From NCBI GenBank assembly GCA_030390025.1, contig CM059432.1:76758001-76822000 (forward strand): a stretch of DNA of 64,000 nt, read 5' to 3'. The notes below the pieces were generated by a model. That model was given only the letters and a program-made list of their open reading frames with translations, was not told where the DNA came from and searched no databases. Shown here piece after piece: positions 8,819 through 64,000 of the stretch (its first letter is position 1; each line of letters begins with the position of its first letter). The stretch comes from Squalus acanthias (taxonomy: Eukaryota). The translations under genes were made by a program, and so were the position numbers.

Positions 8819-9034
8819 TTACAGAGTATTTTGGTGAACACCACTAAACTAAATTTTACAAGAATGAATTAAACCCTCATACTAATGTAATCATACCAAG
8901 TAACACCACAGAAAGCGACCATTTAGCATTGGCACCACACTCCCTCATAGTCACCCTCTACAGATGTAACTCACACATTCCTTACACTCATGCCATCACT
9001 CTCACTCAAACTTCTCTTCATTTCCTCCTTGCAG

Positions 9035-10359: not shown

Positions 10360-10559
10360 AGAAGTGTTATTGTTAAAATTCCGTTACTGTCCTCACACAT
10401 ATAAAAGTTTTTATTTTCACCACTTTCATGCCCATTTTTGTCTGATACTTTGGAAGTGGCTTTGTGAGTTGGAATGAATAGTGAGACATAACGTAACCTC
10501 CAGCAATGGGGGTCAGTGTGAAAGGAATGGTTTGGTCATTGTAGGGATGCTTTATGGTG

Positions 10560-11125
10560 TTGTTGCATCGGGAACTGGGCACAGCATGTGTCAGCCATAT
10601 AGGTGCAAGGCAGGAAGTTAAGTAAATCTGGCCATGATGAGGCCATCCCTGGCCTCCAGGGCAGCAATGTGCTCCGCTGCTGGTGCCATCTGGACCTCGG
10701 GTTCCTCGTGCTCCTCCTCCTCGTCTTCCAGCTGATGCTCCTCCTCCTCCTCCACCTCCTCCTCCTCCTCTGAAGAGGCTGTGCGCTCTGCGCCTTGCTC
10801 CTCATGTAGTTCTAATCCTCATTGCTGCACTGTGTTGTGCAGAGCACAGCAAATGACGACAATTCGGGAGACCCTGGCTGGTGCATACTGAAGTGCTCCT
10901 CCAGATCTGTCAAGGCATCTGAAGCACATCTTCAGCATCCCTATTGTTTGCTTTATGACACATCTGGTGGACACGTGGCTTTCATTATAACGCTCCTGTA
11001 AGCCATGTCTTTAGTGGATAGCCTTTGTCTCCAAGCAGCCAGCCGGTAAGTGTGTTTGGCCGTGCAAAGAGCTGAGGGAGGGTGGACTGGCACAGGACAA
11101 AAGAGTCATAACAGCACAAATTTTG
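10560..11125 (-). pseudogene. Harbinger (HARBI1-like, DDE_Tnp_4-type) transposase, C-terminal remnant
   Basis: Hand translation gives DSFVL...[15 protein letters not shown], a deletion/frameshift, then [54 protein letters not shown], a stop, and an acidic poly-Glu tail. Confidence 0.9.
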
Positions 11126-11209
11126 CGTGCTGCCTTGACCACTTTCAACAGGCACAGGCAAATAGCGCTGGCCCTTGACACTGCCCATTTTCTGGCCTTA
11201 TCCAATTTC

Positions 11210-11575
11210 GAGGCCTATAGTTAAAGTTTTTTTTCCCTGGAAAAAGACACAGTTAAGGGACTGGGGTCTAATACAACTTTTTTAAATTATGAAAGTTTCT
11301 GAGAGGACAAATAGTGAAAGATTGTTTCCACTCAAATGGCAATAAGGGACATTGACTGAAGATTATCACTTAAAGAATGAAAAGGGAAGGTAGGAAAAAT
11401 TTTGTGCACAGGGTCAAGTCAATAGATTATGGAATGCTTTACCGCAAGTGGCTACTGAGGTAGAGACTATGACTTCATTTAAAATGTAATTGGATTAGTA
11501 TTTGCAAAGGTAGAATATAAAAGGATACTAGAAAGGGTCATAAAGTTGGATTAGAGTTGACAGCTGCAACTGAAG
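11210..11575 (+). mobile_element. Old CR1 LINE 3' fragment
   Basis: Degenerate similarity to the CR1 3' end at 51200-51520 (ttccctggaaaaaagac, ttgtttccact, tggaatgcttt, gtggctactgaggtagag). Confidence 0.6.
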
Positions 11576-22700: not shown

Positions 22701-22724
22701 AATATTCAGATTGCATGCTGTAAA

Positions 22725-22817
22725 CTTCACCTGAGGAAGGAGCAAATCGATAGTTCCGAAAGCTTGTGATTTCAAATAAAACTGTTGGACTATAACCTGG
22801 TGTTGTGCGACCTCTCA
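22725..22817 (+). mobile_element. Penelope-like element 3' (pLTR) fragment with a minimal hammerhead ribozyme motif
   Basis: Homologous to 53959-54046 (AAATAAA.CTGTTGGACTATAACCTGGTGTTGTGCGAC); contains TCAC-CTGAGGA-A-GGAGC-loop-GTTCC-GAAA-GCTT-GTGA at 22727-22769. Confidence 0.85.
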
Positions 22818-27156: not shown

Positions 27157-27710
27157 CCGGTTATGTGTGTGTTAAACTGTCTATACAGCCGCGTGATTCA
27201 TTTGTTTATCAAATAAGTATGATCTTATTCAGACTTTTATTAATAGAGTAAATATGCTGTTTGGAATTATCTGCTGGCATGTCTCATCTGTTTATAGATA
27301 CGCATGCACAAATGTTATATATACGAGACCTGTGTGTGTGTATATATTGTGTATAGAAGCATATTTCTCTAACTGTACAGCCTGCGTGTTTTTAGTGGTG
27401 TGGGTGACGGTCTGCCCCAGTGCAGGCTGCCCATTTCGGACGGGCTTGTCCCTACTGGCTCTTGGTGTTTCTATAGCGCTCTGCTCATACTCTCGGAGAC
27501 AGTAAAGATTCCGCAACCCAACCACCCGCCTCCCCCGCAACCCCCTCCCATTCCCTTAACCGTCAGAATTTCCACTGCGAACGTTTGCCTCTGCCAATTG
27601 AATCGGTCTCCATTAGGGGCAGGGTCTGATGCATAATTCGAGAAATGAAAAGGCAATTCTGCATTAAGCGTGAAGTGGCCTTGATCAACCAAACGGTTAC
27701 CATTTCTCAA

Positions 27711-28237
27711 ATGTGTGCGCTGGGTGTATGCGCTGTGTGTGTGCTGGGTGTGTGAGTGTGTGTGTGCTGTGTGTGTGTGCTGGGTGTGTGTGCTGGGTGT
27801 GTGCTGTGTGTGTGTGTGTGCTGGGTGTGTGTGTGTGTGTGCTGAGTGTGTGTGTGCGTGTGTGTGCTGAGTGTGTGTGTGCTGGGTGTGTGTGTGTGTG
27901 TGTGTGTGTGGGTGCTGCGTGTGTGTGCTGAGTGTGTGTGTGCTGGGTGTGTGTGTGTGTGTGTGTGTGCTGGGTGTGTGTGTGTGTGTGTGTGTGTGTG
28001 CTGGGTGTGTGTGTGTGCTGCGTGTGTGTGCTGTGTGTGTGTGTGTGCTGGGTGTGTGTGCTGGTGTGTGTGCTGTGTGTGTGCTGTGTGTGCTGTGTGT
28101 GTGTGTGCTGTGTGTGTGTGCTGTGTGTGTGTGTGCTGTGTGTGCTGGGTGTGTGCTGTGTGTGTGTGCTGTGTGTGCTGGGTGTGTGCTGTGTGTGTGT
28201 GCTGTGTGTGCTGGGTGCGTGTGTGTGCTGCGTGTGT
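27711..28237. repeat. Long compound (TG)n microsatellite punctuated by CTG/CTGG, running into an assembly gap
   Basis: Visible directly; produces spurious Cys/Val and His/Thr ORFs. Confidence 0.97.
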
Positions 28238-28437
28238 NNNNNNNNNNNNNNNNNNNNNNNNNNNNNNNNNNNNNNNNNNNNNNNNNNNNNNNNNNNNNNN
28301 NNNNNNNNNNNNNNNNNNNNNNNNNNNNNNNNNNNNNNNNNNNNNNNNNNNNNNNNNNNNNNNNNNNNNNNNNNNNNNNNNNNNNNNNNNNNNNNNNNNN
28401 NNNNNNNNNNNNNNNNNNNNNNNNNNNNNNNNNNNNN
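28238..28437. other. Assembly gap (200 N)
   Basis: Run of N; the round size suggests a placeholder of unknown true length. Confidence 0.99.
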
Positions 28438-29644
28438 GGGGGGGGGGGTGTTGTGTGTGTTGGGGGGGGTTGATGTGTAAAAGGGAGTGTTGTGAGCTGA
28501 AGTGCAGATTTAGAAAGGAAGAACATCGTGTCTGGGAGCAATCGCATGAAATGTCATGTTTTTTGAATTCATTCTGTGGCTTCGTGTAAATTTGGACGGA
28601 GGGCCGCGTTGTTTCTCGGAACATTGATGTTGTTATTAACTGGCTTGCACTGTCTTTCAGTGCCATCAGGTGACGTTACCTCGATTGTCGGGATAATGCA
28701 AGCACGGGGATCGTACCGGCTTCATGTGCCGGTTCCGCCATATGATTATTTCCAATTTGAAAGAACAACAGAGAATACAGAATAAAGCTGCCGGCCCCTG
28801 GCATGAACCGTGCTGACAGTCTTAGGAGATGCGCTGCATCTCTCTAGACTGGGATAAAGTTATAAACAACTTTATGAAATTGTTTTACAAGTGATACCTG
28901 AGCAGTAATGTAGGTAACACCGAGGACGGGTCCATCATTGAATGTCACCCCAACATTGCTCTGCGAATTGGTGTTTTAAAAAGCGTCGCGTTGCGTTTTA
29001 GTGACTGCAGCAGCAGAGAGGAGGGCCGAGGCGAGCAACCTTGTCCGTTAGACTGTCAACTTAGTACAGAACTGGTCTAATGTTATTTGAAGAGCTTTCA
29101 ACCGTAACCTGAGGGCCTTTGTCATTCTTGTTCTGAAAAAGTTTTTTTCACAACGCCCCCTATTCTCCACCCTACTCCAGATACCTGTGTTCATTCTTAG
29201 GCACGTTTCAGAGAAGTGGGGTGGGGGGGGGGGGAGGGGGGCATTACGTGTAAACAAATGTGTGAAAGAAACAAATGATAGAACATTATTTTCTGAATAA
29301 TAGGATTTCATTTCCAATTATCTTATTCTTATAGGAGGGGGGTACAGGTTACTTGACAATACGCCTTTTGAAAAACCCTGTCGATCAGAGGTCGCCAAAG
29401 GCAGCAAACATAATTTAAAACCCCAAATAATACATTTCGAATAAGTATTTGTTCCGCCAGTCTAATATCGAATTTCAGTGTACATTTAGGAAACTGTTTC
29501 AAGATGTAAAGTGGTACAGCAGTGTTAACGCCGAGAGATGCTGTCATGTTCAAATTGGGGTGTTGCAGCCCCCACAAGGCCCGGTGATGCTGAGATTTTG
29601 TGTCTCTCACTCTCAAGGACATGGAGATGATCAGGAGTTTGGGA

Positions 29645-38799: not shown

Positions 38800-40972
38800 A
38801 TAGCAAGGGTGTCCCGACATTGCAGGCAATGCAGAAAAGGGAAGACTGATACCTAGTTTCAGGCATACAAGATGTGAGGGGAGTTTGAAGCATCCGGGTA
38901 TGTTTACTCTGGAGAAGAGAAGGCTCAGGGGAAATGTTATTTAAGTATTCAAGATCCTTAAGGGAATAGGTAAATTGAATCCTGATAATGGCTGCGATTT
39001 CCCCTACCTCGGTGGGTCCGGGGCGGGCAATGTTGGTGGTGGGTCCTGACCCCGCTGTTGGCTCCAGCCCGCTATGTAGAATGATTTTACGCTGTTTGGG
39101 CTTGTTAAGCCTGCCCAGCGCGTTTGCCGGACAATTGAAGGAAGCGGGTCTGATGACGTCATTTGATGACGTGTCATCAGCCGGTTTCCTTAAAGGGACT
39201 ATGCGCAAATTTATTTTGACAGTTGTGCTGTCAGTGTTCTACAGCATTGAGGTGCTACAAAGACTGACAAGCATTGCACAGAGGTGCAGGGCTGCACCCA
39301 GGCTCTCCCATGACTCCCTCCATATGCTTATGGAGGGAGTCACAGCAGATAGTGAGGTTCTCTTCCCTTCCAATGGGCGGAAGAGACCTCCCCAGGAGAT
39401 CAATGCAGCCTGGTTGCACATTGCACAGGAGGACTCAAGCAGGGATGTCGTCAGGAGGACCAGGCTGCAGTGGCGCAAACCTTTCAATGATCTCAGTAGA
39501 TCACAAAACATTACTGCAAAGCCACACTCAACCTCATCCTGCTGTACACATCCCCATCACTCTGCCTTCCATACCATACTCTTGCACATCCTTACTCACA
39601 CCACTTACCTTGCACCTCCACCCATCCCTCTCTATCTAAATTATCACTTCCCCATCTCACCCTCATCCTAGTCCAATCATACCAACTAACAACACACAAG
39701 GGTAGACACTTGGGTGTGTTAGACAATGTTCATGTAAAGTTTTGGTTAATATGCTGTCAAACATTGAAACCTTTATTTTCAACACTTTGCGTTCTTGGAC
39801 AGATCTGTGTGCACCTTTGGAAGTGGCTTAGTGAGTTGCAGTGAATGGTGAGACATAACGGTACCCCCGCAATGGTGATGAGTGTGAAAGGAATGGCTTG
39901 GGCATTGTAGGGATGCTTTATGGTATTGGTGTGGGGTGGTGCCAACCTGGCGCATCATGTGGCAGCCAGGGTGTACAGCATCAAGTGAAGTAAATCTGGT
40001 CAGGTAAGGCCATCCCTGGTGTCCCGGGCAGCAATGTGGTCAGGTGCTGATGCCCTCTGTCTTGTGCAGCATCAGTTGATTGTGGAGAAGTTTGGTGTTG
40101 TTGTTGGTGCTGCTTGTGTTGGGGCTGATCATGGTGGGATTCTGAGGACCAAGGTTTATTTAGTTTTAAGGGCACAGATGCTGATGTAATAGATGGCAGG
40201 TGAACTTGAGATGACAGAAGCGATCTGTCACTGGTGAGAGAGGTAGTACTGGATAGAGAGTTTGCTCCAAACACTTGCAACCTGCATAAAGCTCAATCTG
40301 CCCTCCAAATGCAGTAAGCAACAGCTTCTGAGCTTGGAAAGTGAACAGCTGTGAGATGGGAGCTTTTATAGCACATTTGCAGCTGTCAAATAATGAGATG
40401 ATTCCATAGTCATACAACTCCCGACCTCCTTACCTGACATGATCCCCGAGCAGCATGGACCTTGTGGGCGACCTCGTAAAATGGGAAGGTGAGCTCAAAA
40501 TACTTTTTAATGGGCTGTTAACAAGGTCATAATGACCTGAATTGCCTCCCCCGCTGCTGCATGTCGGATCTGTTCAGCCCTGACAGACCCGACATCGGAG
40601 AAAGTCGCATGGCGGCGGGTTGACAGCAGGGTCCCGACCCGCTGTCAACATTTTTTTTCCCACCCAACCCGCCACTGAATGCATCCACTGACCCCCCGAA
40701 AAATTCCTCCAATATGTTGATTATTGTCTGAAACTCTAGAATCAGGGGATATGGGCTCAAGCTTCGAAGAGGGAAGGAGCACAGACAGCATTGATCTATT
40801 TTCTTTACACAGAGGGTGATGGGAGTGTGGAATGGTGACAGTAGAAGCAGCTGGTGTTGAATCATTTAAGGGAGCTTTGGAAAGATGTTTGACAACTGGG
40901 AGATTGAGGTAGATTCATTTTTGGTACCAGTTAGTTGGACTGCTGGTCCTGTACTTTCCTATGTTCCTATAG
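38800..40972 (+). mobile_element. Old CR1 3' fragment split by the Harbinger at 38990-40710
   Basis: TTTACTCTGGAGAAGAGAAGGCTCAGGGGAAAT before the insertion; TTCTTTACACAGAGGGTGATGGGAGTGTGGAAT and a CCTATGTTCCTAT tail after it. Confidence 0.75.
38990..40710 (+). mobile_element. Non-autonomous PIF/Harbinger element, sister of 5698-7469
   Basis: Colinear with 5698-7469 over most of its length; Myb/SANT exon at about 39325-39500; AAT on both flanks (38987-38989, 40711-40713); degenerate TIRs. Confidence 0.9.
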
Positions 40973-42159: not shown

Positions 42160-43820
42160 ATATACAACATCTACTGCACTACCTTCATCAACCCTCTCTG
42201 TTACTTCATCAAAGAACGCAATCAGGTTAGTCAGACACAATTTGCTTTTAACAAATCCATGCTGGCTGCCCTTATTAACCCATGCTTCTCCAAGTGAGAA
42301 TTAATTTTGTCCTTGACAATGGTCTCTAGTAGTTTGCCCACCACTGACATTAGACTGATTGGCCTGTAGTTATCAGATTTATCCCTCTTGCCTTTTTTGA
42401 ACAGGGATGTAACATTTGCAATCCCCTAGTCCTCTGGCACCACTCCAGTATCCAAGGAGGATTAAAAGATTGTGGTCAGAGCTTCTGCTATCTCCATCCT
42501 AGCTTCCCACAGTAACCTCGGATGCATCCCATCTGGACCGGGTGACTTGTTAACTTTGAGTGATGCCAATCTATTTAGCACCTCCTTTCTATCTATTTTT
42601 ATCCTATCCAATATCACTACTCTCCCTCCTCTATTCTGACATTAACTTCATCCTCTTCTTTTCTGAAGAAAGATGCAAAGTACTCATTCAGTACCTCAGT
42701 CATGCCCTCTGCCTCCACAAGATTTCCTTTTATGTCCCTAATCGGCCCCACCATTCCTTTAACGATCCTTTTACTTTTTATATGCTAATAAAAGATTTTT
42801 GGGTTCCCTTTTATGTTACCTTCTAATCTTTTTCATACTCTCTCTTTGCAATTCTTTTGTCCTTTTTCAATTTCCCCCGGCACTCTCTGTATTCTGCCTG
42901 TTTTTCGACTGTAATCTATACCTGACATTTGTCATAAACCTCCTTTCACTGTTTCATTTTTACCTCTATTTCCTTCATCATCCAGGGAGCTTGAGCTTTG
43001 AATGCCCCATCTTTCCTACTTACGGGAATCTGCTTGGTTTGTACCTGAACTATCTCCGCCTTGAAGGCCTGCCATTGCTCATTTACTGTTTTCCAGTCCA
43101 CCTGTGCTAGATCCCTTCTCAAATCACTGAAATTGGCTCTCTTCCAGTTGGATATTTTCACTGTTGCATTTTCTTTGTCCCTTTCCATAGCTACTTTAAA
43201 CCTAATTATAGTATGTTCATTATTACCCAGATGTTCCCCCACTGAAACACACTCCACTTGCTCTACTTCATTCCCCAGAACTAGCTCCAGCACTGCTTCA
43301 TTCCTTGTTGAGCTAGAATCATATTGATTAAGAAAGCTTTCCTGTACACATTTTAGGAATTCTTCACCCTCCTTGCCCTTTACTCTGTTTTTCCTCAGTG
43401 TATATTAGGGTAATTGAAGTCCCCTACTATTACTGCTCTAGTATTTTTATATTACTCTGAAATTTGCCTACAGATTTGCTCCTCAGTCTCCTTCTCACTA
43501 TTTGGGGGTCTATAGTAAACACCCAGCAATGTAACAGCTCCTTTTCTGTTGCTTAACTCTAACCAAGTAGATTCAGTCTTTGAAGCCTCTAGTATATTGT
43601 CCCTCTGTAGAACTGTAATGTTATCCTTGATCAATACTGCCACCCACCCCTTTCTTTTCCCCTTTCCCTATCCCTCATGAATACATTGTAGCCAGGAATG
43701 TTTAGTACCCATTCCTGACCATGTTTAAACCAGGTCTCCGTTATAGCCACTATATCATAACTTGCACCTGTAGCTCGTCATCCTTATTTGTAACACTCCT
43801 CGCATTAACACACATGCATT
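42160..43820 (-). mobile_element. CR1 LINE ORF2 remnant (endonuclease to RT start), disrupted
   Basis: GVYYRPPNS and LELVLGNE...EHLGNNEHTIIRF endonuclease motifs; SPGPDGMHPR and QHGF RT-region motifs on the minus strand. Confidence 0.92.
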
Positions 43821-45675: not shown

Positions 45676-48493
45676 GGCCACGATTTTGCCGGTGCTCAGA
45701 GGGCGGGTTCGGAGGCGGGTCAGGTGTTAAAGTTGCAATGATTGATGGCGGGTTGGAAACCCGCCACGAACCCGCCTCCGTCTGAGTTTCAGGATTGTCA
45801 GGTCTGCAATCTCACAACAGACCTGACACCAAGCGGCGGGTAAGGGATTTAAAGCACTTAACTCCTTGTTAAGTGCTTGTTGAGAGCTATTTTGACAGCC
45901 TTTTGCAATTTTCCAAGTTTTGGGTCGAGTTTCACGATGTTCGGAGATCACGGTAGGTAAGTGTGTCGGGAATACCAACGAGCTGGAAACTTCACAGCTG
46001 CAATTGCAGTCTAAAAGCTGCACTCTCAAATCTGATCAATTTCAAATGTCAGAGGTTGGTGATTTAACAATTTGGTAGACACATTCTGTGTTTAGGCTGC
46101 AAGTATGTGGTGTTAACTCTGTATCCACTGTAACCTACATTGCTGGACATAAAAGGCGTCCTTACCCTTCACTGTGCCACCTCAAATTGTCAGCACACAT
46201 ATGGCAACGATGTCAAATATTCATGCAACATTAATTTATTGCAACTTAAGAAATGAACAGAAACTTCACAATGAATTCTATCAGCACATCCAAGTGAGAA
46301 CTCTTGTGCTTATTTATGTGTCAGCTTTCTCTTACGCATGATTCTACGTTGTGCTCCCCCTGTGGCTTCAGCAGATGTAGAGAGAGCCTGCTCACTTCCT
46401 GCTGCGCCTGCTTAGACGCCTTTGGTGGTCGTCCTCTGGTTTTTAGTGCCTGTGAAGACCCCGCCAAAGTCTGCTCCACCTGTGGCTGTACAGGAGCAGA
46501 CTCACCCATCACTGCTTGGGTACTCATCTGGGGCTCTGACCGAGGGGTTGGCAAGGGGCTGGAAGTTGGAGCGATTGGAAAGGGGCCCCCACTTGCATTC
46601 TGCCTCCCACCATCATCCCTCTCATGGGCCACCCGCACTTCTCTGCTAGCAAGTAACTGGAGAGCACCTTGCTGCACATCAGTGGGGCCATGAGGATCCA
46701 TCTCTGTAATGATAGTCCTCCTAATGGGGACGTCCATGGACCTCTGGTTCCTCTCCACGATAGATGCCCATCTATCCTCCATAGCTGACCATCTATCTAG
46801 AAGAGTCACCATGTTGGTTTGAGTCTGGCGATTTATGTCCTCCATGGAGGTTGCCATCCTTTCCATGATGGCACCTACATTTGCCATTGCATGCACCACG
46901 GCATTGCTCATGTTTGAGATGGACTTCTCCATTCTCTGCACACTCGAAGTCACCATGGTTGCAAACCCAGTTAGAGCCTCCTGCATCTGTTCCTGAAGCT
47001 CCAGCACCGATCACTTTCTGGATGGCCCCTGAGGCTCAGTGTCTGTATGCAGCTGAGCAGAGCGAGGAGCGTCCTACGGCCTCTGACGAGGACTCTCCAT
47101 GGCTGTCCCTGTCTCCACCATCTGCTCTTGTTCACTCATGCGTGCGATACACCAGGTGACAACAGTACTCTATCTCGCAAATGATCCACCGAGGTGTGCG
47201 TCTCTGCGCTGGTGCTGGATGCGCTCATTGCTGCTGACGCTGCTCCCTCAGAGGATGCAGCATCTCTGAGGAGTCCTCCTGCTCTTCCCCCTGGACAGTA
47301 GGGAGGGGGGCTCTTGATGATCCTGTGGGAGAGTAAAGACAGGAGTTAGACATGTGATATGTAATTTGCAGACACATCCCATTGTGCACATGATGAGCAT
47401 TCAATTTCTATTGACATCAGATGCCATATGTGTCACTCATGAAAGCCAAATAAGATGAATGGAGAAGCATTCTGTCACCAGGTTGTTCAACTGAGCTCGT
47501 CTCTCCGTCCCCCACTTCTAGATGTTCCACCAATCCCACAATTTCGAGAGCCGTCTCCTCGGCATTGGTCAGCGTAACCACGGATGGTGGTCCACCTCCT
47601 GTTCTCTCCCCCTCCCTCTTATTGTGGGATCTCTTTTCCTGCAATGAGGGAAAGAAGTGGAGTTTCAGTGAGAGTGATGGAATGAGTGTAAAGAATGGAT
47701 AGGATAGATGTTTGGAGGGAGACTATGATGCAGTGGGTTCCCATTACCAAGTTCCCTCCTTTTGAGTTGCTGGTTGTTGTCATTGCATAACCTTGAGGGT
47801 GAGTGTGAGGGGTGCATAGTTAGATGGGGAAGTGATTCCATACATAGGGAGAGAGGGCTGGTTGATGGTGCAAGTGATGCTGGGTTGAGTTAGGATGTGC
47901 AGGGGGAGGGTGGGCAATGCAGAGTAATGGGGAAGTGATGACAGGCATAGCAGAATTAAGGTCAGTGTGCTTCTATACTCACTTTTCCTGTGCGCAGGAG
48001 ATCATTGAACCTTTTCCTGCATTGGACCCAGGTGCGTCTTACCATGGACCTGGCACTGACCTCCTCAGCTATTCGCAGCCAGGCTGCCGTCGTCTGCTGA
48101 GGAGGTTTCCTTTTTCCATCTCCCGGGTATAGGACCTCCCGACGACCTCTGACTCCCTCCACAAGAACATGGAGGGATTGCTCATTGAAGCGAGGAGCTG
48201 CCTTCTGTCTCTCTGCAGACATAGTGCGCACCAGCAGCAGTCAGGAGCAGCAGAAACGACTCCAGGTGTAAATGTGAAATGGCCCCCTTAAATACTCCGG
48301 CAGCAAACGCGTCAGCAGAGCAGCTGACCAGACCTGCACCTTGTGACCGGAGCGGGTAACCCACACGGCGGGCTTAACGAGCCCAATTAACCAAAAATTG
48401 TGTCAGCAGGCCGGCTGGAGTCGGCAGCGGGACCGGAACCCGCCGAGCACCGTTCCCGTCGCCAACCCTGCCTCGACAGAGAAATTCGCAGCC
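45676..48493 (-). mobile_element. PIF/Harbinger element carrying a three-exon Myb/SANT gene; transposase largely deleted
   Basis: Imperfect TIR GGCCACGATTTT / GAAATTCGCAGCC; CAT on both flanks (45673-45675, 48494-48496). Confidence 0.88.
46321..48222 (-). pseudogene. Harbinger Myb/SANT gene: exons 48222-47983, 47638-47479 and 47322-46321; frameshift early in exon 3
   Basis: Exon 1 MSAERQKAAPRFNEQSL...AWLRIAEEVSARSMVRRTWVQCRKRFNDL; GT-AG junctions are phase-compatible (0, then 1); a 1-bp deletion near 47263 relative to the 9350-10359 copy gives a premature TGA. Confidence 0.88.
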
Positions 48494-50324: not shown

Positions 50325-51776
50325 TTTTTCCCAACTATTGCTGCCCCTCGGTTACATCATTCGAAAAATCAACATCAGGTTCCACATGTACACTGACAAC
50401 AGCCAACTCTACCTCCCCACCATCTCTCTCAACCCCTCCACTGTCTCTGATTTGTCACGCTGCTTGTCCGACATCCAGTACTGGATGAGCAGAAATTTCC
50501 TCCAACTAAATATTGGGAAGAACGAAGCCATTTTCTTCGGTCCCCGCCACAAACTGTGTTCCCTAGCCACCGACTCCATCCCTTTCCCTGGTCACTGTCT
50601 GAGGCTGAACCAGACTGTTCGCAACCTTGGTGTCCTATTTGACCCTGGGATGAGCTTTCAACTATATATCCGCTCCATCACCAAGACCGCCCATTTCCAC
50701 CTCCGTAACAGGAAGTAGAGTGAACAGTGAGGAGGATAGTGATAGACCTCAAGAGGACATAGGCAGGCTGGTGGAATGGGTGGGCACGTGGCAGATGAAG
50801 TTTAACGCAGAAAAGTGCGAAGTGATACATTTTAGCAGGAAGAACGAGGAGAGGCAATATAAACTAAAGGGTACAATTCTAAAGGGGGTGCAGGAACAGA
50901 GAGACCTGGGGGTATATGTGCACAAATCGTTGAAGGTGGCAGGGCAGGTTGAGAAAGCGGTTAAAAAAGCATACGGGATCCTGGGCTTTATAAATGGAGG
51001 CATAGAGTACAAAAGCAAGGAATCTATGATGAACCTTTATAAAACACTGGTTCGGCCACAACTGGAGTATTGTGTCCAATTCTGGGCACCGCACTTTAGG
51101 AAGGATGTGAAGGCTTTAGAGAGGATGCTGAAAAGATTTACAAGAATGCTTCCAGGGATGAGGGACTTCAGTTACATGGATAGATTGGAGAAGCTGGAGT
51201 AGTTCTCCTTAGAGCAGGGAAGATTGAGAGGAGATTTGATAGAGGTGTTCAAAATCATGTGGGGTCTAGACAGAGTAAATAGAGAGAAACTCTTCCCATT
51301 GGCGGAAGGGTCGAGAACCAGAGGACACAGATTTAAGGTGATTGGCAGAAGATCTAAAGGAGACATGAGGAAAAACTTTTTAAGCAGCGAGTGGTTATGA
51401 TCTGGAATTCACTGCCTGAAAGGGTGGTGGAGGCAGATTCAATTGTGGCTTTCAAAAGGGAATTAGATAAGTACCTGAAGGAAAAACATTTTGTAGGGCT
51501 ATGGGGAAAGGGCGGGGATTGGGACTAGCTGAAGTGCTCTTGCAGAGAGCCGGCACGGGCTCGATGGACCGAATGGCCTCCTACTGTGCTGTAACCATTC
51601 TATGATTCTATAACACCGCCCAACTCTGCCCCTGCCTCAGCTCACCTGCTGCTGAAACTTTCATCCATGCTTTTGTTACCTCTAAACTTGACTATTCTAC
51701 TGCTCTCCTGGCCAGCCTCTCATCTTTCAACCTCCATAAACTTGAATGCATTCAAAACTCTGCTGCCCGTATCCTA
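50325..51776 (+). mobile_element. L2 LINE fragment interrupted by a CR1 at 50711-51610
   Basis: FHMYTDNSQLYL...FLQLNIGKNE...KTAHFHLRN; the L2 sequence resumes at 51611. Confidence 0.9.
50711..51610 (+). mobile_element. 5'-truncated CR1 LINE
   Basis: WQMKFNAEKCEVIHF...RDLGV...LVRPQLEYCVQFWAP; ATTCTATGATTCTA tail; TAACA duplicated at 50706-50710 and 51611-51615. Confidence 0.95.
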
Positions 51777-52132: not shown

Positions 52133-53388
52133 AAGTAGAAGCAGGGAATTTAAGATGTTTTCCAATAATTTATTCAATAACCTAACTTTCTAAGCACAGA
52201 GAAAAAGTACAGCATAATAGCTAACAGAGAAAATAAAGTACATGCAAAGCTAGCCAAAGTTAGGTAGAGAAAATGACAGACAAAAGTAGACAATAATCCA
52301 GGATGACAGTTCGCTGCTGAGCATCATGGAAGTAGGTAGATGTGGTCAATGTTGCAGTCAGTCTGCTACCCAAGGAAAGAGGTTGTATATTTTTAAGCTC
52401 ATGTCACTCAAGGTCACTTAACACTGGAAGCCTACCAGTGGATTGTTGAATAAACTGTGAACTTAAGTCTATACTGTAAACTTGCGCATTGAATGTTGCT
52501 TTATTATACATTAACAAAGCTAAACCCATTTAGTGCAGAGATAGTATGATACATACTGTTTTGCTTAAGGACATTTGTAGCATTCAAATAGCTCTCTAGC
52601 TGCAATCAACTAACTCAGTGTAGACTGGGTATGGAACCTAGACTTTCTTAGTCTTTATTGACTCAACTACTCACTGCATATGCTATGAAGTTGGGGGCAG
52701 GGAGTAAGGCAATGCTTTTACTATATTTTTTAAGGAAAAGGGTTTTTAATGTTTCACATGTACAAATTCGTTTCAGTTTGTCACTTTCACTTTAGACTTG
52801 ACTGACATTGAGGTCCCGATATTTATAGGGAAGCGGGGGAGCATGGTAGTGCCTGGGAAACCTGTCGAGGCTGGGGATGAGGAGGTCCTGTCGAGTTTAA
52901 AAGCAGGACCTCATTATAAGTTTATTCTTCTGTTTTCTGCCCGGTAACAGGCCAAGTGGCAAGGGAGGACCCTTGGGGACGGTCACTGTCAATCGCGATC
53001 GTGGGGCAGGCTTCAAATCAGCGGTGGAGGAGCAGATGGCCGATTGCGGGACAGGCTGCAAACTGGGAGCTTGGGGGGTGGGGGTGTCAGCTAATCACGG
53101 CAGGGAATAGAGAGAGCCCGCAATCAACAGAAGGGAGTCCGAAGGTTTGCTTGAGAGGCCAGGGGAGCACTTCTGCTCCTCCTGGCCCACAAGAAGTTCT
53201 GTAAAAAGCACTTACCTTCTGGAGCCCGCAGTTCCCGCCTCCCTTTCGCTGCCGGGTTTCCTGAGGCCCAGGAAACCCAGCCGATAGCTGTTAAATGTAA
53301 ACCAGTCTCCCAATTGCATTGTCGGAGCCTGATTTAAATATGAGAAGTCGCACAACACCAGGTTATAGTCCAACAGATTTATTTAATT

Positions 53389-53426
53389 TTACAAGCTTTC
53401 GGAGCTGTCGCTCCTTCGTCAGGTAA
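53389..53426 (-). ncRNA. Second minimal hammerhead ribozyme motif (inverted copy)
   Basis: Reverse complement reads TTAC-CTGACGA-A-GGAGC-GACA-GCTCC-GAAA-GCTT-GTAA. Confidence 0.83.
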
Positions 53427-53960
53427 GTTAGCAATGAGAGAATCTCCCAGAATTCACAATTTAAACCCAGACAAAATCTATTCACATTATTCGCTACAAC
53501 AAAGAGCACAGCCAAGACAATGAGATGTGTCCCAGGGGGTCCAACGTGTCAAACCACCTGCTGGCTGCATATCCTGTCAATTTGTGTTCTTGTGTTAGAT
53601 CTGCGGGTAAGCGTTCGCCAAGGCGGCCTTCGAGATACACGACAGCGCAAAATCATAGAGCAGAAACTGATAGCCAAGTTCCGCACTCATGAGGATGGCC
53701 TCAATCGCGATATCGGGTTCATGTCACGATACAGAACGTGACTTGACATCATGGCCGGTCTTCCCAGGTGTTTTTTTTTTTAAAAAGGCTAACACAAGAA
53801 CACAAATTGACAGGATATGCAGCCAGCAGGTGGTTTGACACGTTGGACCCCCTGGGACACATCTCATTGTCTTGGCTGTGCTCTTTGTTGTAGCGAATAA
53901 TGTGAATAGATTTTGTCTGGGTTTAAATTGTGAATTCTGGGAGATTCTCTCATTGCTAAC

Positions 53961-53998
53961 TTACCTGATGAAGGAGCGACAGCTCCGAAAGCTTGTAA
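53961..53998 (+). ncRNA. Minimal type I hammerhead ribozyme motif (PLE-associated)
   Basis: TTAC-CTGATGA-A-GGAGC-GACA-GCTCC-GAAA-GCTT-GTAA: CUGANGA and GAAA core boxes, 5-bp stem II, stem I TTAC/GTAA, palindromic AAGCTT. Confidence 0.85.
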
Positions 53999-56900
53999 AA
54001 TTAAATAAATCTGTTGGACTATAACCTGGTGTTGTGCGACTTCTCATTTTTGTCCACCCCAGTCCAACGCCGGCATCTCCACATCATGATTTAAATATGA
54101 CAATGAAGTGTCCCGCCTCTCCAAGATAGAACGCATGAACACCCCAAAACCCATCAGCGTAAAGGCGGCAATGTACGGGCGCATACGTGGCGAGTTAGGG
54201 GCGCGTTCCCCGTTTTTTAGGGTTTAACCCCCACCTGACCCCCTCCTGCCCGTCGTGGAGGGCTTAATATCGAGGCCTTAAGTTTCAGTTTACTCTTACT
54301 GTAATCGTCATCACTGAACTTTGTTAATCATATTACAATAGTTGTAGTCAAATAAATTAGTGTTAGTATGACATCTCAGTGTCTGATTTAGTCTTTGATG
54401 TCTCTGGCAGGTAATTTGCACTTCATTCAGTGTTGACATATAATCAATAATCAATATTTTTATGTTATGGAGGACAATTTGAAGTGACCTAATTTAGATA
54501 TCATGAAACCCTAAATTGTAAATTGTGCAATCTTATAATTGATGAGGGGGGGAAGATTCATCTAATACCCTTCAATTAATGTAAGTTATATAATGTCATT
54601 TTTTGATGTAATATTTGAAACATATTGTGGGTGTTCTGCAGACTTTATTCTTCAGATTTTCAACAACCCATTGAATACTCCTAACAATGCTAAGAGTAAT
54701 GTTTCCTACCCAGAATCCTGGATGACCATGAATGATATTGGTTTATTTCCCTTTGAAGTGAGTGTCTCCTTCTTTCAAAGTCTGACATTGCTTTTTGTAA
54801 TATCAGCTTAGAGCACTATAATAAAATAGAGAACTACCTTATGAACATCTTCACAAATGAGAAAACGTTTAAGTATTCTTGAGCAAGAAGATAAAATAAC
54901 CTTTACTGCAACAAACTGTGAAAAAGTGTGGCAAATTGTTGTAATCTTTTCAAAACTTCATTTGTTTTATTGCTACTTATCCAGTTGCAACACTTTTTTG
55001 TGCTGTATTTCTTGCCAGGTTTACAAAATGAATAAAATTTAAATGAAAAAAGCAAGAGTTATGTGAACAAAATACTGTCTGCCAATAAGCATGTTTGGTG
55101 TAATAGCATAATGCATCATTGGTTTAGCTAATTACTGTATAGATTTTAATTGTGAGTTAAACGGGTAATATTTAATTGGGCTTTGAATGGAGAAGTGCCC
55201 TATTAAACTCAGCTATTCTGATTCCCTAATTGATCCTTTCCTTTTATAAATAGTCCAGCTGCTGTTTGCTTTTCCCCAACCCACATGTACACACATATAC
55301 ATACAAATCTTTTCATCATAGCTGCCCATGTCTGTGAATTGCTCTTTTCACATGGCCACTAATGGGCATGTATATCAAATCTGTGTGGTCAGATTAGTGA
55401 ACCTGCTGCAATTTTACTGAACGCTGACATTCGATCATCTTCACAATGATTCTAAAGCTTTGACTAAGTGTGTAGGCTTTTACTTTTTAAAAAGAACTTT
55501 TAAATGTATCAGGCCTAGACTTGCTGGTGGCAGAACAAGATGGGTACGACATTTGAAACAAGCAGGGGATCTGATTGCGGCGGAGAACTGGAGTTGTAAA
55601 TTCAATGATTGCAATACAATGTCAAGTCCTCCTGCCAGGTTATACTGTCCCACACCTAAATGGCTTGAATTTTCAAACCTGGGCAGAAATAACTGCTGGT
55701 AAAAGATGAGCAGATGAGACTGTTCCTAAGAAAATAAGCTAGCACGGTAGAAGTTGAGTAAAGCTACAGCAGCATCATTCCTATAAGCATACATGCAATT
55801 CATGTGCTGAAGTAATGTTTGTGTACTTAGAAAAACATATAAATTCCCTAACACAGTATACAAAATAAAGCACAAACTCAGGCAAGAGTGTGTTTTAAGA
55901 CAACAAAACATCTCTAGGTTTGGATGACATTCATATGACAAGAGAGGAGCCCCTCGTGTATTATTGTTTTGTAACACGCCCCAGTGCGGATGCTTCCCTT
56001 AGTTAATACATCAGAAGGAATACATTTTAAATACCAAGTTATTTCAGAAATGCCCAACACATTTTGGTAGCTTTGGTCTTAAAATTATAAGTCCAATCTA
56101 TCCCCCAAAATACACAGCCATCAAGTTACTTTTTATTCGTTTATGGGATGTGGGCGTCGCTGGCAAGGCCAGCATTTATTGCCCATCCCTAATTGCCCTT
56201 GAGAAGGTGGTGGTGAGCCGCCTTCTTGAACCGCTGCAGTCCGTGTGGTGAAGGTACTCCTACAATGGAGTTCCAGGATTCTGACCCAGCGACGATGAAA
56301 GATCGGCGATATACTTCTAAGTCAGGATGGTGTGGGACTTGCAGGGGAACTTGGAGGTGGTGGTGTTCCCATGCGCCTGTTGCCCTTGTCTTTCTAGGTG
56401 GAAGAGGTCGCGGGTTTAGGAGGTGCTGCCAAAGAAGCCTTGGCGAGTTGCTGCAGTACATCTTGTAGATGGTACACACTGCAGCCACGGTACGCCGGTG
56501 GTGGAGGGAGTGAATGTTTAAGGTGGTGGATGGGGTGCCAATCAAGCGGGCTGCTTTGTCCTGGATGGTGTCGAGCTTCTTGACTGTTGTTGGAGCTGTA
56601 CTCTTCCAGGCAAGTGGAGAGTATTCCATCACACTCCTTACTTGTGCCTTGTAGATGGTGGAAAGGCTTTGGGGAGTCAGGAAGTGAGACACTCACCATA
56701 GAATACCTAGCCTCTGACCTGCTCTTGTTGCCACAGTATTTATGTGGCTGGTCCAGTTAAGTTTGGTAACCCCCAGGATGTTGATGGTGGGGGATTCGGT
56801 GATGGTAATGCCGTTGAATGTCAAGGGTTGGTGGTTAGACTCTCACTTGTTGGATATAGTCATTGCCTGGTACTTGTGTGGCGCGAATATTACCTGTCAC

Positions 56901-57633: not shown

Positions 57634-59746
57634 TAAGAACATAAGAACATAAGAAATAGGAGCAGGAGTAGGCCAATCGGCCCCTCGAGCCTGCTCCGCC
57701 ATTCAATAAGATCATGGCTGATCTGATCCTAACCGCCAATCTACTATCTATCACAGAACCATCTCCTGCATCTAACAGAATTGCACACACGAAATAGGAG
57801 CAGAATCAGGCTACACAGTCCCTGGGCCCGCTCCACTACCCACAGGGCCATGACCGATCCGAACCTAGACTCATGTCCAAATTCCTGCCCGCTCCCCGTA
57901 ACCCTTAATGCCCTTTACTTCTAGGAAACTGTCTATTTCTGTTTTAAATTTAATTAATGTTGTAGCTTCTACAGCTTTTTGTGGCAGCATATTCCATGGA
58001 CCTACCACCCTCTGAGTGAAGTAGTTCCTCCTCATCTCAGTTTTGAAAGAGCAGCCCCTTATTCTAAGACTATGTCCCCTAGTTCTCGTCTCACCCGTCA
58101 TCGGGAACATCCTCCCCGCATCCACCCGATCCAACCCCTTCACAATCTTATATGTTTCAATAAGATCGCCTCTCATTCTTCTGAACTCCAATGAGTAGAG
58201 TCCCAATCTACCCAACCTCTCCTCATATGACCACCCCCTCATCCCCGGGATTAACCGAGTGAACCTTTTTTGCACTGCCTCGAGAGCAAGGATGTCTTTC
58301 CTTAAGTAAGGACACCAAAACTGTATGCAGTATTCCAGGTGCGGTCTCACCAATACCTTGTACAACTGAAGCAATACCTCCCTATTTTTATATTCTATCC
58401 CCCTAGCAATGAAAGCCAACATTCCATTTGCCTTCTTAATCACTTGCTGCACCTGCATACTAACCTTTTGAGTTTCGTGCACCAGGACCCCCAGATCCCT
58501 TTGCACTTCAGTACTCTCCAGTTTCTTGCCATTAAGATAATAAATTGCTCTAGGATTTTTCCTGCCAAAGTGCATCACCTCACACTTTCCAGTGTTGTAT
58601 TCCATCTGCCAAATCTCTGCCCACTTACTTAGCCTGTCTATGTCCCCTTGCAGGTTTTTTATGTCCTCCTCACTCACTACTTTCCCTCCCATCTTTGTAT
58701 CATCTGCAAATTTTGATATGTTACACTTGGTCCCTTCCTCCAAATCGTTAATATAGATTGTGAAGAGTTGGGGACCCAGCACTGACCCCTGTGGAACACC
58801 ACTAGTTACTGATTGCCAGTCTGAGAATGAACCATTTATCCCAACTCTTTGCTTTCTGTTAGATAGCCAATCCTCTATCCATGCCAGAATATTACCCCCA
58901 ATCCCGTGATTTTTTACCTTAAGCAATAATCTTTTGTGTGGCACCTTGTCAAATGCCTTTTGGAAGTCTAAATACACTACGTCCACTGGTTCCCCTTTAT
59001 CCACTCTATATGTTACTTCCTCAAAGAACTCCAGCAAATTTGTCAAACATGACTTCCCCTTCGTAAAACCATGCTGACTTTGTCCTATTAAATTATGATT
59101 ATCCAAATGTCCTGTTACTGTTTCCTTAATAATGGACTCCAAAATTTTACCTACCACAGATGTTAGGCTAACCGGTCTATAGTTACCAGCCTTCTGTCTA
59201 CTGCCCTTTTTAAATAAGGGTGTTACATTAGCAGTTTTCCAGTCTGCCGGGACCTTAGCGGAATCCAGGGAGTTTTGAAAAATTATTACCAATGCATCTA
59301 CAATCCCTACCGCCACTTCCTTCAAGACTCTAGGATGTAAGCCATCAGGTCCAGGTGATTTATCCGCCTTGAGTCCCATTATTTTACCGAGTACCACTTC
59401 CTTAGTGATTTTGATCGTGTTTAGCTCCTCTCCCCCTATAGCCCCCTGTTTGTCCAGTGTTGGGATATTCTTAGTGTCCTCTACTGTAAAGACTGATACA
59501 AAATATTCATTCAGTGTTTTTGCCATCTCCATATTTCCCACCATTAATTTCCCGGTCTCATCCTCTAAGGGACCAACATTTACTTTAGCCACCCTTTTTC
59601 TTTTTATATAACTATAAAAACTCTTACTATCTGTTTTTATATTTTTTGCTAATTTACTTTCATAATCTATCTTCCCTTTCTTAATCAACCTTTTTGTTAT
59701 TTTTTGCTGCCTTTTAAAGTTTTCCCAATCCTCTGTCCTCCCACAA
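57634..59746 (-). mobile_element. Young 5'-truncated CR1 LINE
   Basis: Uninterrupted RT ORF; (TTCTTATG)n tail at about 57634-57655. Confidence 0.96.
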
Positions 59747-59826
59747 TGTGGAGTGAATTGAATTGGCTGAAGACTGGCTTCTGTGATGGTGGGGACCTCA
59801 GGAGGAGGCCGATATGGATCATCCAC
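57871..59826 (-). CDS. CR1 ORF2 reverse transcriptase region, 651-aa open frame without endonuclease; first 27 or so residues come from the host LINE
   Basis: KSPGPDGLHPR, NYRPVSLTS, QHGF, YLDFQKAFDKVPH, GVPQGSVLGP, FADDTK, RPHLEYCIQFW with no stops. Expression is not implied. Confidence 0.9.
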   Translation of the reverse strand: MDDPYRPPPEVPTITEASLQPIQFTPHCGRTEDWENFKRQQKITKRLIKKGKIDYESKLAKNIKTDSKSFYSYIKRKRVAKVNVGPLEDETGKLMVGNMEMAKTLNEYFVSVFTVEDTKNIPTLDKQGAIGGEELNTIKITKEVVLGKIMGLKADKSPGPDGLHPRVLKEVAVGIVDALVIIFQNSLDSAKVPADWKTANVTPLFKKGSRQKAGNYRPVSLTSVVGKILESIIKETVTGHLDNHNLIGQSQHGFTKGKSCLTNLLEFFEEVTYRVDKGEPVDVVYLDFQKAFDKVPHKRLLLKVKNHGIGGNILAWIEDWLSNRKQRVGINGSFSDWQSVTSGVPQGSVLGPQLFTIYINDLEEGTKCNISKFADDTKMGGKVVSEEDIKNLQGDIDRLSKWAEIWQMEYNTGKCEVMHFGRKNPRAIYYLNGKKLESTEVQRDLGVLVHETQKVSMQVQQVIKKANGMLAFIARGIEYKNREVLLQLYKVLVRPHLEYCIQFWCPYLRKDILALEAVQKRFTRLIPGMRGWSYEERLGRLGLYSLEFRRMRGDLIETYKIVKGLDRVDAGRMFPMTGETRTRGHSLRIRGCSFKTEMRRNYFTQRVVGPWNMLPQKAVEATTLIKFKTEIDSFLEVKGIKGYGERAGIWT

Positions 59827-62610: not shown

Positions 62611-64000
62611 AAATAGCCATGTGGGAATATGTTCTAGTGGTGATAACTGAGACCTGGTTCAAAAAAGGGGAGGATTGGATGCTTAATATTCCTGGGTAAA
62701 AGGTATTCAGGAAAGATAGGGAAGGGAAAAAAGGAGGAGGGGTAGCAATTTTGATTAAGGAAAATATTACAGTGCTAGAAAGAGAGAATGTCCTTGAAGG
62801 ATCAAAGACAGAATCTATTTGGTTGGAGCTGAGAAACAATAGAGGAGCTATTACACTACTTGGTGTATTTTATAGACCACCAAATAGTGGGAAGGAGACT
62901 GAGGAGCAGATTTGCAAAGAAATTACCGAGAGGTGCAAGAACTATAGATTAGTGATAATGGGAGACTTTAACTACCCCAATATTGAATGGGGCAGTGATT
63001 GTGTTAAGAGCAGAGAAGGGGAGGGATTTCTGAAGTGTGTTCAGGAGAATTTTCTTGATCAGTATGTTTCCTGCCCAAAGAGGAAGGAGGCACTGCTGGA
63101 TCTAGTCCTGGAGAATTAAATGGGTCAAGTGGAGAATGTCATAGTTGGAGAGCATCTTGGGAATAGTGATCTTAGTATCATAATGTTTAGATTAGTTATG
63201 GAGAAGGACAAGGAGCAATCTAGAATAAGAGTACTTAACTGGAGAAGGGCTAATTTCAGAGAATTGAGGAGTGATCTAGCCCGGGGAAATTGGAGTCAAT
63301 GACTGGCAGGCAGAAATGTAATGGAGCAATGGGTGGCCTTTAAAGAGGAGATGGTTCGGGTACAGTCTAGGTACATTCCTACAAAGGGGGAAAGGGAGGG
63401 CAACTAAAGCCAGAGCTCCCTGGATGTCGAAGCAGTAGGATGAAGCAGAAAAAGTGGGCTTATGACAGATGTCAGCTTAATAATACAAGGGAGAATCAGG
63501 CTGAATATAAAAAGTACAGAGGAGAAGTGAAAAAGGAATTAAGGGGGCAAAGAGACAGTACGGGAATAGATTGGCGGCTAACATAAAAGGGAATCCAAAG
63601 GTCTTCTATAGGCATATTAACAGTAAAAGGGTTGTCAGAGGAGTGGTGGGGTCAATTAGGGACTAAAATGGAGAACTATTGGTGGAGGCAGAGGGCATGG
63701 CTGAGGTAATAAATGAGTACTTTGCATCGGTGTTTACCAGGAAGAGGACATTGCTAAAGCTATGGTAAACTAGGAGGTTGCTAGGATACTGGATGAGATA
63801 AAGTAGATAAAGAGGAGGTACTCGAAAGGCTGGCAGTAATTAAAGTGGATAAGTCACCTGCTCCAGATGGGATGCAGCCTAGGTTGCTGAGGGAAGTAAG
63901 GGTAGAAATTGCGGAGGTGCTGGTCACAATCTTGCAATCTTCCTTAGATACAGGGGTGGTGCCAAAGGACTGGAGGATTGCAAATGTTACACCCTTGTTC
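62610..64000 (+). mobile_element. CR1 LINE ORF2 remnant (endonuclease onward), with stops and frameshifts; runs off the window
   Basis: ITETW, GGGVAIL, GVFYRPPNS, MGDFNYP, LLDLVL, HLGNSD and KSPAPDGM motifs. Confidence 0.93.

What the first reader, a model, noticed from the sequence alone, without database searches (positions are those of the whole stretch)
53330..54100. Fold-back Penelope insertion: 259-bp inverted repeat with two opposed hammerhead ribozymes
Seen: 53340-53598 is the reverse complement of 53789-54047, with one mismatch that I could find. That mismatch sits at the variable N of the CUGANGA box (CTGACGA vs CTGATGA), so both ribozyme cores stay canonical. The 190-bp spacer encodes only a GIY-YIG C-terminus. 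A 14-bp direct repeat flanks the insert, and its last bases overlap the inverted copy as microhomology. The whole unit is nested in a Harbinger MITE. Known: Penelope-like elements often carry inverted pLTRs and minimal hammerheads that can cleave as dimers through a palindromic stem III. Inference: this is a very young insertion. Transcription in either direction would give an RNA with one hammerhead that competes with a long dsRNA hairpin, a possible endo-siRNA or ADAR substrate.
Basis: partly seen in the sequence, partly recalled or inferred. Interest (0 to 1): 0.75.

Follow-up and report, generated by a model that had tools for sequence, protein, structure and literature searches.

The report
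Ordinary truncated Penelope-like retroelement insertion
The hairpin-shaped insert with two opposed hammerhead ribozyme motifs is real, but it is the usual dead-on-arrival footprint left by a Penelope-like jumping gene in a shark-type genome, and the hairpin would smother both ribozymes rather than switch them.

Summary
Observation confirmed: 259-bp arms with one mismatch, a 190-bp spacer, a 14-bp target duplication and two opposed minimal hammerheads. The unit is a 5'-truncated endonuclease-positive Penelope-like element (PLE): a direct copy (last 47 codons of the GIY-YIG domain, 3' region, hammerhead, 39-nt 'tail') plus an inverted tail-less copy. This layout is described as typical of PLEs (PMC8557442, PMC3846280), and opposed minimal hammerheads 100-700 bp apart were reported in 2014 (PMC4209133). 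Short-read contigs show the same tail-less end and similar head-to-head joints in other copies. Relatives carry the Neptune/Nematis-type linker. The host is a decayed 709-bp element, probably Harbinger-derived. The mismatch is a CpG transition, not a sign of selection. In either transcript the antisense arm comes first and forming the hammerhead costs about 60 kcal/mol, so there is little real competition; transcription of this locus is unshown. Likeliest origin: both nicked target strands primed cDNA at the element's two internal start sites; fold-back self-priming is the main rival. This scan noted the same pattern in two other genomes. Ordinary; low interest.

The parts
53330..53343 (+). 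Left copy of the 14-bp target-site duplication (AT-rich, with an ATT on each strand); last 4 bases shared with the inverted arm
53340..53598 (-). Inverted, 5'-truncated, tail-less copy of the PLE 3' end (259 bp)
   Evidence: same end point as the copy at 22723-22817 and as 50 contigs in run X5
53389..53426 (-). Minimal type I hammerhead motif in the inverted copy (N7 = C); predicted cut after 53393
   Evidence: mirror of the + strand motif
53598..54086 (+). Direct, 5'-truncated PLE copy (about 489 bp); base 53598 is a 1-nt microhomology shared with the inverted copy
   Evidence: (family sequence continues upstream of 53598)
53598..53741 (+). Last 47 codons plus stop of the PLE ORF: C-terminal part of the GIY-YIG endonuclease (conserved E and N, 'LNRD.G' end)
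   Evidence: 12 hits at E up to 0.01 among 18 candidates, 76-93% identity; 41 of 45 residues identical to P0002 598-642
53789..54047 (+). Right arm: the part of the direct copy that is repeated in inverted form
53961..53998 (+). Minimal type I hammerhead motif (N7 = U): 4-bp stem I, core 53965-53971, one extra base before stem II, 5-bp stem II 53973-53986 closed by G-C, palindromic 4-nt stem III region without loop; predicted cut after 53994
   Evidence: compared with the description in PMC4209133
54048..54086 (+). 39-nt 'tail', present on the direct copy only
   Evidence: family tail seen as loose ends in 10 contigs of X6 at 0.98 agreement; 30-40-bp tail described in PMC8557442
54087..54100 (+). 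Right copy of the 14-bp target-site duplication
52812..54277 (.). Host element, 709 bp without the insert, non-coding, decayed terminal inverted repeats (11 of 14), flanked by TGA and TTA; probably a Harbinger-derived MITE

Best explanation
A recent, dead-on-arrival insertion of an abundant endonuclease-positive Penelope-like retroelement (Neptune/Nematis-type linker in its relatives) into an AT-rich site of an older non-autonomous DNA transposon. Shown: the anatomy (direct copy with tail, inverted copy without tail, head-to-head, 14-bp duplication). Inferred mechanism (about 0.5 against rivals): the element's GIY-YIG nuclease nicked both target strands 14 nt apart, leaving 3' overhangs; each 3' end primed cDNA on element RNA at one of the two internal start sites (outer site gives the tail, inner site gives the tail-less end, here helped by a 4-nt, or 7-of-8, primer-template match); both cDNAs stopped early (about 489 and 259 nt) and were joined head-to-head through a 1-nt microhomology. 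The hammerheads are passengers of the terminal repeat. Any read-through RNA would fold into a 259-bp duplex that buries the motif, so self-cleavage at this locus is unlikely.
For: Tail on one end only, 39 nt, matching the 30-40-bp tail and adjacent inverted 5'-truncated copy called typical in PMC8557442 (passages) and PMC3846280 (passages). The tail-less end is a family-wide end point: the solo copy at 22723-22817 stops at the same base and 50 contigs of run X5 leave the element at 53341 into unlike flanks (agreement 0.40). Other copies show the same head-to-head geometry: 3 of the 15 joints listed in table 5 (18 more not shown) run from the inverted arm into the spacer (53361>53598, 53401>53668, 53434>53766), and table 5c adds 53371>53709 and 53386>53677; sides are short (20-26 letters where given). 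The spacer peptide matches the C-terminus of shark RT plus GIY-YIG proteins. PMC11167929 (main text read) shows in vitro that a lizard PLE protein cuts and extends both strands, prefers ATT, starts RT at two internal sites bounding the tail, and is predicted to be a dimer; the duplication here has ATT on both strands. Folding: 38 of 38 (+) and 37 of 38 (-) hammerhead bases pair with the other arm; forcing the hammerhead costs 64.7 and 60.7 kcal/mol, against 0.8 for the direct copy alone.
Against: No listed contig bridges this locus's own junctions (32 pieces listed, 19,858 not shown), so the locus was not confirmed in independent reads. Two separately primed templates might be expected to differ at more than 1 of 259 sites, and the arms agree at the variant sites that one search lists inside the arm; this fits single-template fold-back at least as well. 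The in vitro work is on a Poseidon-clade element and reports no primer-template homology, whereas this family appears to be of another clade and has 4-7 matching bases at the inner end. Clade was judged by one motif, with no tree.
Confidence: 0.88

Rival explanations
1. Same element, different route: one cDNA was primed at the right end, stopped at 53598, folded back and copied itself from 190 nt back, and the new end was captured at the left nick by the 4-nt microhomology (self-priming).
For: The minus strand of the insert reads exactly as cDNA followed by a copy of itself. Arms are identical but for one CpG transition, which can arise after insertion. PMC3846280 (Discussion read) proposes self-priming for head-to-head PLE inverted repeats. 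A 6-bp palindrome spans the inner junction at 53597-53602.
Against: Only 1 nt of homology at the jump and a 190-nt loop, not a tight palindrome. It does not by itself explain why the copy stops at the family-wide tail-less point, which a solo copy without a detected inverted partner also uses.
Confidence: 0.35
2. The locus is a functional RNA switch or dsRNA source: read-through gives a long hairpin that feeds siRNA or ADAR pathways or competes with a live hammerhead.
For: A transcript would form a near-perfect 259-bp duplex (-553 and -563 kcal/mol for the whole insert). PLE-derived small RNAs, mostly antisense, are reported in a rotifer (PMC3846280 passages). Both cores are intact.
Against: Intact cores are expected in a young copy (95% by chance). 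The antisense arm precedes the ribozyme in both directions and the fold penalty is about 60 kcal/mol. Single minimal hammerheads did not cleave and dimers cleaved weakly in PMC4209133; the lizard motif needed the element's protein, and no RNA-seq reads ended at its cut site (PMC11167929). Nothing marks this copy out from the many others of the family.
Confidence: 0.07
3. Assembly artefact: the inverted arm is a mis-join of a high-copy repeat or a fold-back chimeric read.
For: High-copy family (8,664 contigs laid in X1, 8,839 in X5); the window has 200 N; PMC8557442 notes that such structures trouble assemblies; the locus junctions were not seen among listed contigs.
Against: An artefact would not be expected to create a 14-bp duplication unique in the window, stop at the family's natural tail-less end, leave a 190-nt asymmetric loop and carry a CpG-type difference between arms. 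Similar joints exist in short-read contigs of two samples.
Confidence: 0.03
4. Two independent insertions, or a later local inversion-duplication, rather than one event.
For: The family is abundant, and one search shows joints between relatives of the host element and this PLE at other positions (53185>53336, 53189>53335).
Against: One duplication frames both copies, none frames either alone, and the arms are 99.6% alike while the other window copy is 84% alike.
Confidence: 0.03

Closest known systems
Complex insertions of canonical EN+ Penelope-like elements: inverted 5'-truncated copy plus one-sided tail (PMC8557442 Fig. 2 legend and text; Adineta vaga Pen2a_Av and a Pen2 derivative in PMC3846280; passages read)
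   Same: Head-to-head inverted terminal copy next to the 5' end, 30-40-bp tail on one end only, short target-site duplication around the whole unit, AT-rich target, 5' truncation.
   Different: Very short (743 bp of new sequence), no RT, no direct second pLTR; duplication of 14 bp against 8-10 bp in the rotifer examples read; no tight palindrome at the inverted junction.
Minimal hammerheads (min-HHR) of metazoan PLEs (PMC4209133; results and discussion read)
   Same: Conserved core, extra base between 9 and 10.1, G10.1-C11.1 pair, short stem I, palindromic 15.2-16.2 without loop 3; pairs 100-700 bp apart on opposite strands are reported there (here about 540 bp).
   Different: Stem II is 5 bp (7-8 bp in the Schistosoma families described); predicted cut site base is U; activity untested.
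Poseidon element of Anolis carolinensis, PAc (PMC11167929; main text read)
   Same: Hammerhead near the 3' end of the repeat, tail between two end points, ATT-containing target.
   Different: Relatives of this element carry the CX2-5CxxC linker that Penelope/Poseidon lacks; the frame from the ATG in the hammerhead core closes after 18 codons; some primer-template match at the inner end.
LINE-1 twin-priming inversions (recalled; only a search listing seen, PMC2837659)
   Same: Both nicked target strands prime cDNA, and the products join by microhomology inside one target-site duplication.
   Different: In L1 the inverted part is upstream sequence and the 3' end is not duplicated; here the same 3' end appears twice, so a second template or a self-copy is needed.

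Membership tests
EN+ Penelope-like element | Single ORF with RT and C-terminal GIY-YIG endonuclease | tested here: met
   Only the last 47 codons are in the insert; they match P0002 (41 of 45 identical), which has Pfam RVT_1 (E 5e-9) and aligns with P0004, P0006, P0003 that have Pfam GIY-YIG hits (1 of 3 above the curated cut-off; alignment). Met through relatives, not in this copy.
EN+ Penelope-like element | Inverted 5'-truncated copy adjacent to the 5' end | tested here: met
   feature described in PMC8557442
EN+ Penelope-like element | 30-40-bp tail at one end only | tested here: met
   39 nt, 54048-54086; both end classes seen among family contigs
EN+ Penelope-like element | Short target-site duplication at an AT-rich site | tested here: met
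   14 bp, unique in the window, ATT on both strands; empty allele not seen
Neptune/Nematis-type PLE | CX2-5CxxC linker upstream of GIY-YIG | tested here: met
   Present in 3 of the 4 aligned relatives that reach this region (P0002, P0006, P0008; P0009 lacks the last Cys); definition from PMC8557442. The insert itself does not reach it.
Neptune/Nematis-type PLE | RT phylogeny with named clade members | not tested
   No reference RTs of the clades were held; no tree built.
Penelope/Poseidon clade | Absence of the CX2-5CxxC linker | tested here: not met
   Relatives have the linker.
Minimal PLE hammerhead | Core boxes, extra base before stem II, G10.1-C11.1, palindromic stem III region, short stem I | tested here: met
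   against PMC4209133; stem I shows a two-sided change between this copy and the one at 22731
Minimal PLE hammerhead | Self-cleavage as dimer or with protein help | not testable with these tools
   Needs an in vitro assay; free co-folding of two motifs did not give the dimeric hammerhead fold.
Canonical hammerhead families in Rfam | Match to a hammerhead covariance model | tested here: not met
   0 of 8 matches at E up to 10 in 52500-55000 were hammerhead families.
Non-LTR retrozyme | Two or more tandem units with same-strand hammerheads | tested here: not met
   Motifs are on opposite strands and not in tandem; criterion from a passage of bioRxiv 10.64898/2026.07.22.740005.
PIF/Harbinger MITE (host) | Terminal inverted repeats | tested here: inconclusive
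   11 of 14 alike at 52812 and 54277; best 16-mer match (13) was reached in 22 of 300 shuffles. One of only 3 pairs found in the window by the TIR scan; the right end matches, with 2 mismatches in 13, the end at 11215 of an element with a DDE_Tnp_4 remnant (E 3e-12).
PIF/Harbinger MITE (host) | 3-bp TWA target duplication (recalled definition) | tested here: inconclusive
   TGA on the left, TTA on the right: 2 of 3.
PIF/Harbinger MITE (host) | Short, non-coding, repeated | tested here: met
   709 bp, longest ATG frame 34 codons; 67-70% similar pieces in two other window elements; part 53160-53279 is covered by many contigs.

The most novel reading that the evidence does not exclude
The insert is a clean genomic record of double-ended priming: a dimeric PLE enzyme nicked both strands 14 nt apart and copied two RNA templates from its two internal start sites, the N7 difference being a template difference and the 7-of-8 match showing real primer-template pairing. 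A very abundant, young shark family of such short fold-backs would then let the open question of how PLE inverted repeats form (two templates versus self-priming) be settled by counting arm differences genome-wide.
Probability: 0.3. Interest if true: 0.4.

Novelty: new member of a known kind. Interest (0 to 1): 0.12.

Why it matters
As a single locus it matters little: it is one more copy of a described insertion form. Its use is as a data point: base-precise junctions in young copies bear on the unresolved PLE integration mechanism, and if such fold-backs inside transcribed regions made long dsRNA they could help silence their own family, but neither is shown here.

Tried and rejected
No whole genome is held, so no copy count, consensus comparison or genome-wide junction survey was possible. 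Rfam scan: no hammerhead match. Pfam on the 47-aa remnant alone: no real hit (1 weak unrelated match, E 0.17). Read laying covered 52600-53788 only (left flank, inverted arm, spacer) in 4 of 24 listed runs, all contigs: it neither bridged this locus's junctions nor showed an empty allele among listed rows (19,858 pieces, 597 loose ends and 18 joints not shown), and the right junction was outside the stretch; presence/absence is unresolved. Run X7 (RNA by guess) had no depth on the unique flank 52600-53159 (14 of 30 bins); a hole in contigs proves nothing. X1 differs from the window at 2 flank sites and X5 at 1. Search for a host gene: 0 of 7 unexplained long frames elsewhere in the window hit Pfam at E up to 0.01; a full six-frame scan was not done, so an intronic position is not excluded. 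Selection on the N7 mismatch rejected: it is a CpG transition, chance of that exact site about 0.004-0.035 depending on CpG weight, and 95% of single mismatches would spare the core. My first guess of Penelope/Poseidon clade was dropped. Bacterial promoter scan (11 bases) was irrelevant and empty. bioRxiv 10.64898/2026.07.22.740005: two passages, nothing on inverted forms or sharks. Searches for a paper on shark PLE fold-backs or PLE hairpin siRNAs listed none by title; not exhaustive. The 2017 paper on dimeric PLE hammerheads is recalled only and was not listed.
Full report
Observation. The arms 53340-53598 and 53789-54047 are reverse complements at 258 of 259 positions; the one difference is 53418 versus 53969. 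The spacer is 190 nt. A 14-bp direct repeat lies at 53330-53343 and 54087-54100 and occurs nowhere else in the window; its last 4 bases are also the start of the inverted arm, 7 of 8 if extended. The distance between the two copies is 757 bp. All of this is far beyond chance (E about 1e-133 for the arms).

What the parts are. Bases 53598-53741 give 47 codons and a stop. A protein search restricted to longer proteins returned 12 hits among 18 candidates, 76-93% identical, those with names from cartilaginous fishes. P0002 carries an RT domain and ends in the same peptide (41 of 45 identical); P0004, P0006 and P0003 carry Pfam GIY-YIG hits, one above the curated cut-off. So the + strand from 53598 to 54086 is the 3' end of an endonuclease-positive Penelope-like element (PLE). 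Contigs of other copies continue upstream of 53598 with family sequence (18, 10 and 5 contigs in X1, X5, X6), so this is a 5' truncation point, with one base shared with the inverted arm. Three of the four aligned relatives that reach the linker have the CX4CxxC motif, which PMC8557442 assigns to Neptune and Nematis and says is absent from Penelope/Poseidon (passages). No tree was built, so the clade is probable only.

The tail. The direct copy runs 39 nt (54048-54086) beyond the end of the inverted copy. [quoted passage not shown] The tail-less end here is a natural end of the family: an 84% identical solo copy at 22723-22817 stops at the same base, and 50 contigs of run X5 leave the element at 53341 into mutually unlike sequence, while 45, 31 and 10 contigs of X1, X5 and X6 continue into the tail. 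Head-to-head joints like this one occur in other copies: 3 of 15 listed joints plus 2 further rows of table 5c run from the inverted arm into the spacer, with short sides of 20-26 letters where given; 18 joints were not shown. No listed piece bridges this locus's own junctions, so independent confirmation of the locus itself is lacking.

The ribozyme motifs. Each arm has a minimal type I hammerhead: 4-bp stem I, core, one extra base, 5-bp stem II closed by G-C, a palindromic 4-nt stem III region with no loop, predicted cut after 53994 (+) or 53393 (-). This fits the features listed in PMC4209133 (results and discussion read), which also reports dual minimal hammerheads 100-700 bp apart on opposite strands; here the cores are about 540 bp apart. 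Stem I differs on both sides between this copy and the one at 22731. Rfam gives no hammerhead match. In print, single minimal motifs did not cleave and dimers cleaved weakly; the lizard PLE motif cleaved only with the element's protein and was not needed for insertion in vitro (PMC11167929, main text read). The arm mismatch is C versus T in one of 6 CpGs of the arm; 95% of single mismatches would leave the core intact, so it is no sign of selection.

Hairpin versus hammerhead. The whole insert folds at -553 (+) and -563 (-) kcal/mol, with 38 of 38 and 37 of 38 motif bases paired to the other arm; forcing the hammerhead costs 64.7 and 60.7 kcal/mol, against 0.8 for the direct copy alone. In both directions the antisense arm is transcribed before the motif (sequence order), and the two motifs are on opposite strands, so they cannot dimerise within one RNA. 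The dsRNA idea is physically sound but needs read-through transcription, which was not shown.

The host. Removing the insert leaves a 709-bp non-coding element, 52812-54277, with ends alike at 11 of 14 bases and flanked by TGA and TTA. The inverted match alone is weak (22 of 300 shuffles did as well), but its right end matches the end of a window element that holds a DDE_Tnp_4 remnant and it shares 67-70% similar pieces with two other window elements. Harbinger MITE is probable. Other copies of this host also seem to carry the PLE at other positions, so the nesting is not special.

Age. One difference in 259 (95% range 0.0001-0.022) and a perfect duplication mean young compared with the host and the other copy. 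Conversion between arms and slow substitution in sharks (recalled) limit how far this can be dated.

Mechanism. Both outer ends of the insert are element 3' ends, one at each of the family's two end points. PMC11167929 shows that a PLE protein cuts and extends both target strands, prefers ATT, and starts reverse transcription at two internal sites that bound the tail. The simplest reading (inferred, about 0.5) is two-ended priming from nicks 14 nt apart, with the truncated cDNAs joined by one shared base. Fold-back self-priming, proposed in PMC3846280 (Discussion read), gives the same map and explains the near-identical arms more simply (about 0.35); it is weaker on the 190-nt loop and on the precise tail-less end. 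One locus cannot decide.

Verdict. Real, and a new instance of a described insertion form. Two earlier notes of this scan on other genomes reached the same reading (seen after mine was stated; unchecked AI notes, not support). Interest 0.12.

Noticed in passing
window 22723-22817 (+): Second, older copy of the same PLE terminal region (84% alike), hammerhead core with N7 = G and a longer stem II, ending at the same tail-less point; possible 8-bp duplication with 22639-22646; no inverted partner found.
   Followed up: partly
window 53361>53598, run X1: One contig joins a very short inverted arm to the same 5' truncation point as this insert: either an allele that has lost 236 bp of the arm or another copy; unresolved.
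   Followed up: no
window 5698-7469: Clean Harbinger-type element with 13 of 14 terminal inverted repeat and TAA on both sides; 77% alike to 38985-40648, which has a Myb/SANT-like frame (Pfam E 0.0005, below cut-off).
   Followed up: partly
window 8930-11215: Decayed Harbinger-type element with a DDE_Tnp_4 remnant at 10822-11010 (-) and a 348-codon frame at 9313-10359 related to 46321-47010.
   Followed up: partly
proteins P0001 and P0012: Two shark gene models (named XRCC5 isoform X2 and FAM204A isoform X2) match this PLE endonuclease tail; P0001 ends in it: exonised repeat or annotation error.
   Followed up: no
window 53336, runs X1 and X5: Loose ends entering the tail agree well only in the first bases (agreement 0.39-0.51), suggesting intermediate ends or insertions into the tail; earlier scan notes report a Tx1 LINE that targets such tails in this genome.
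   Followed up: no
window 57871-59826 (-), 42946-43404, 50654-51202, 62700-63119: Long frames that read like CR1/L2-type LINE remnants (recalled motifs, not scanned).
   Followed up: no
window about 27500-28600: CA/TG-rich simple repeat around the window's run of N (200 N in all).
   Followed up: no
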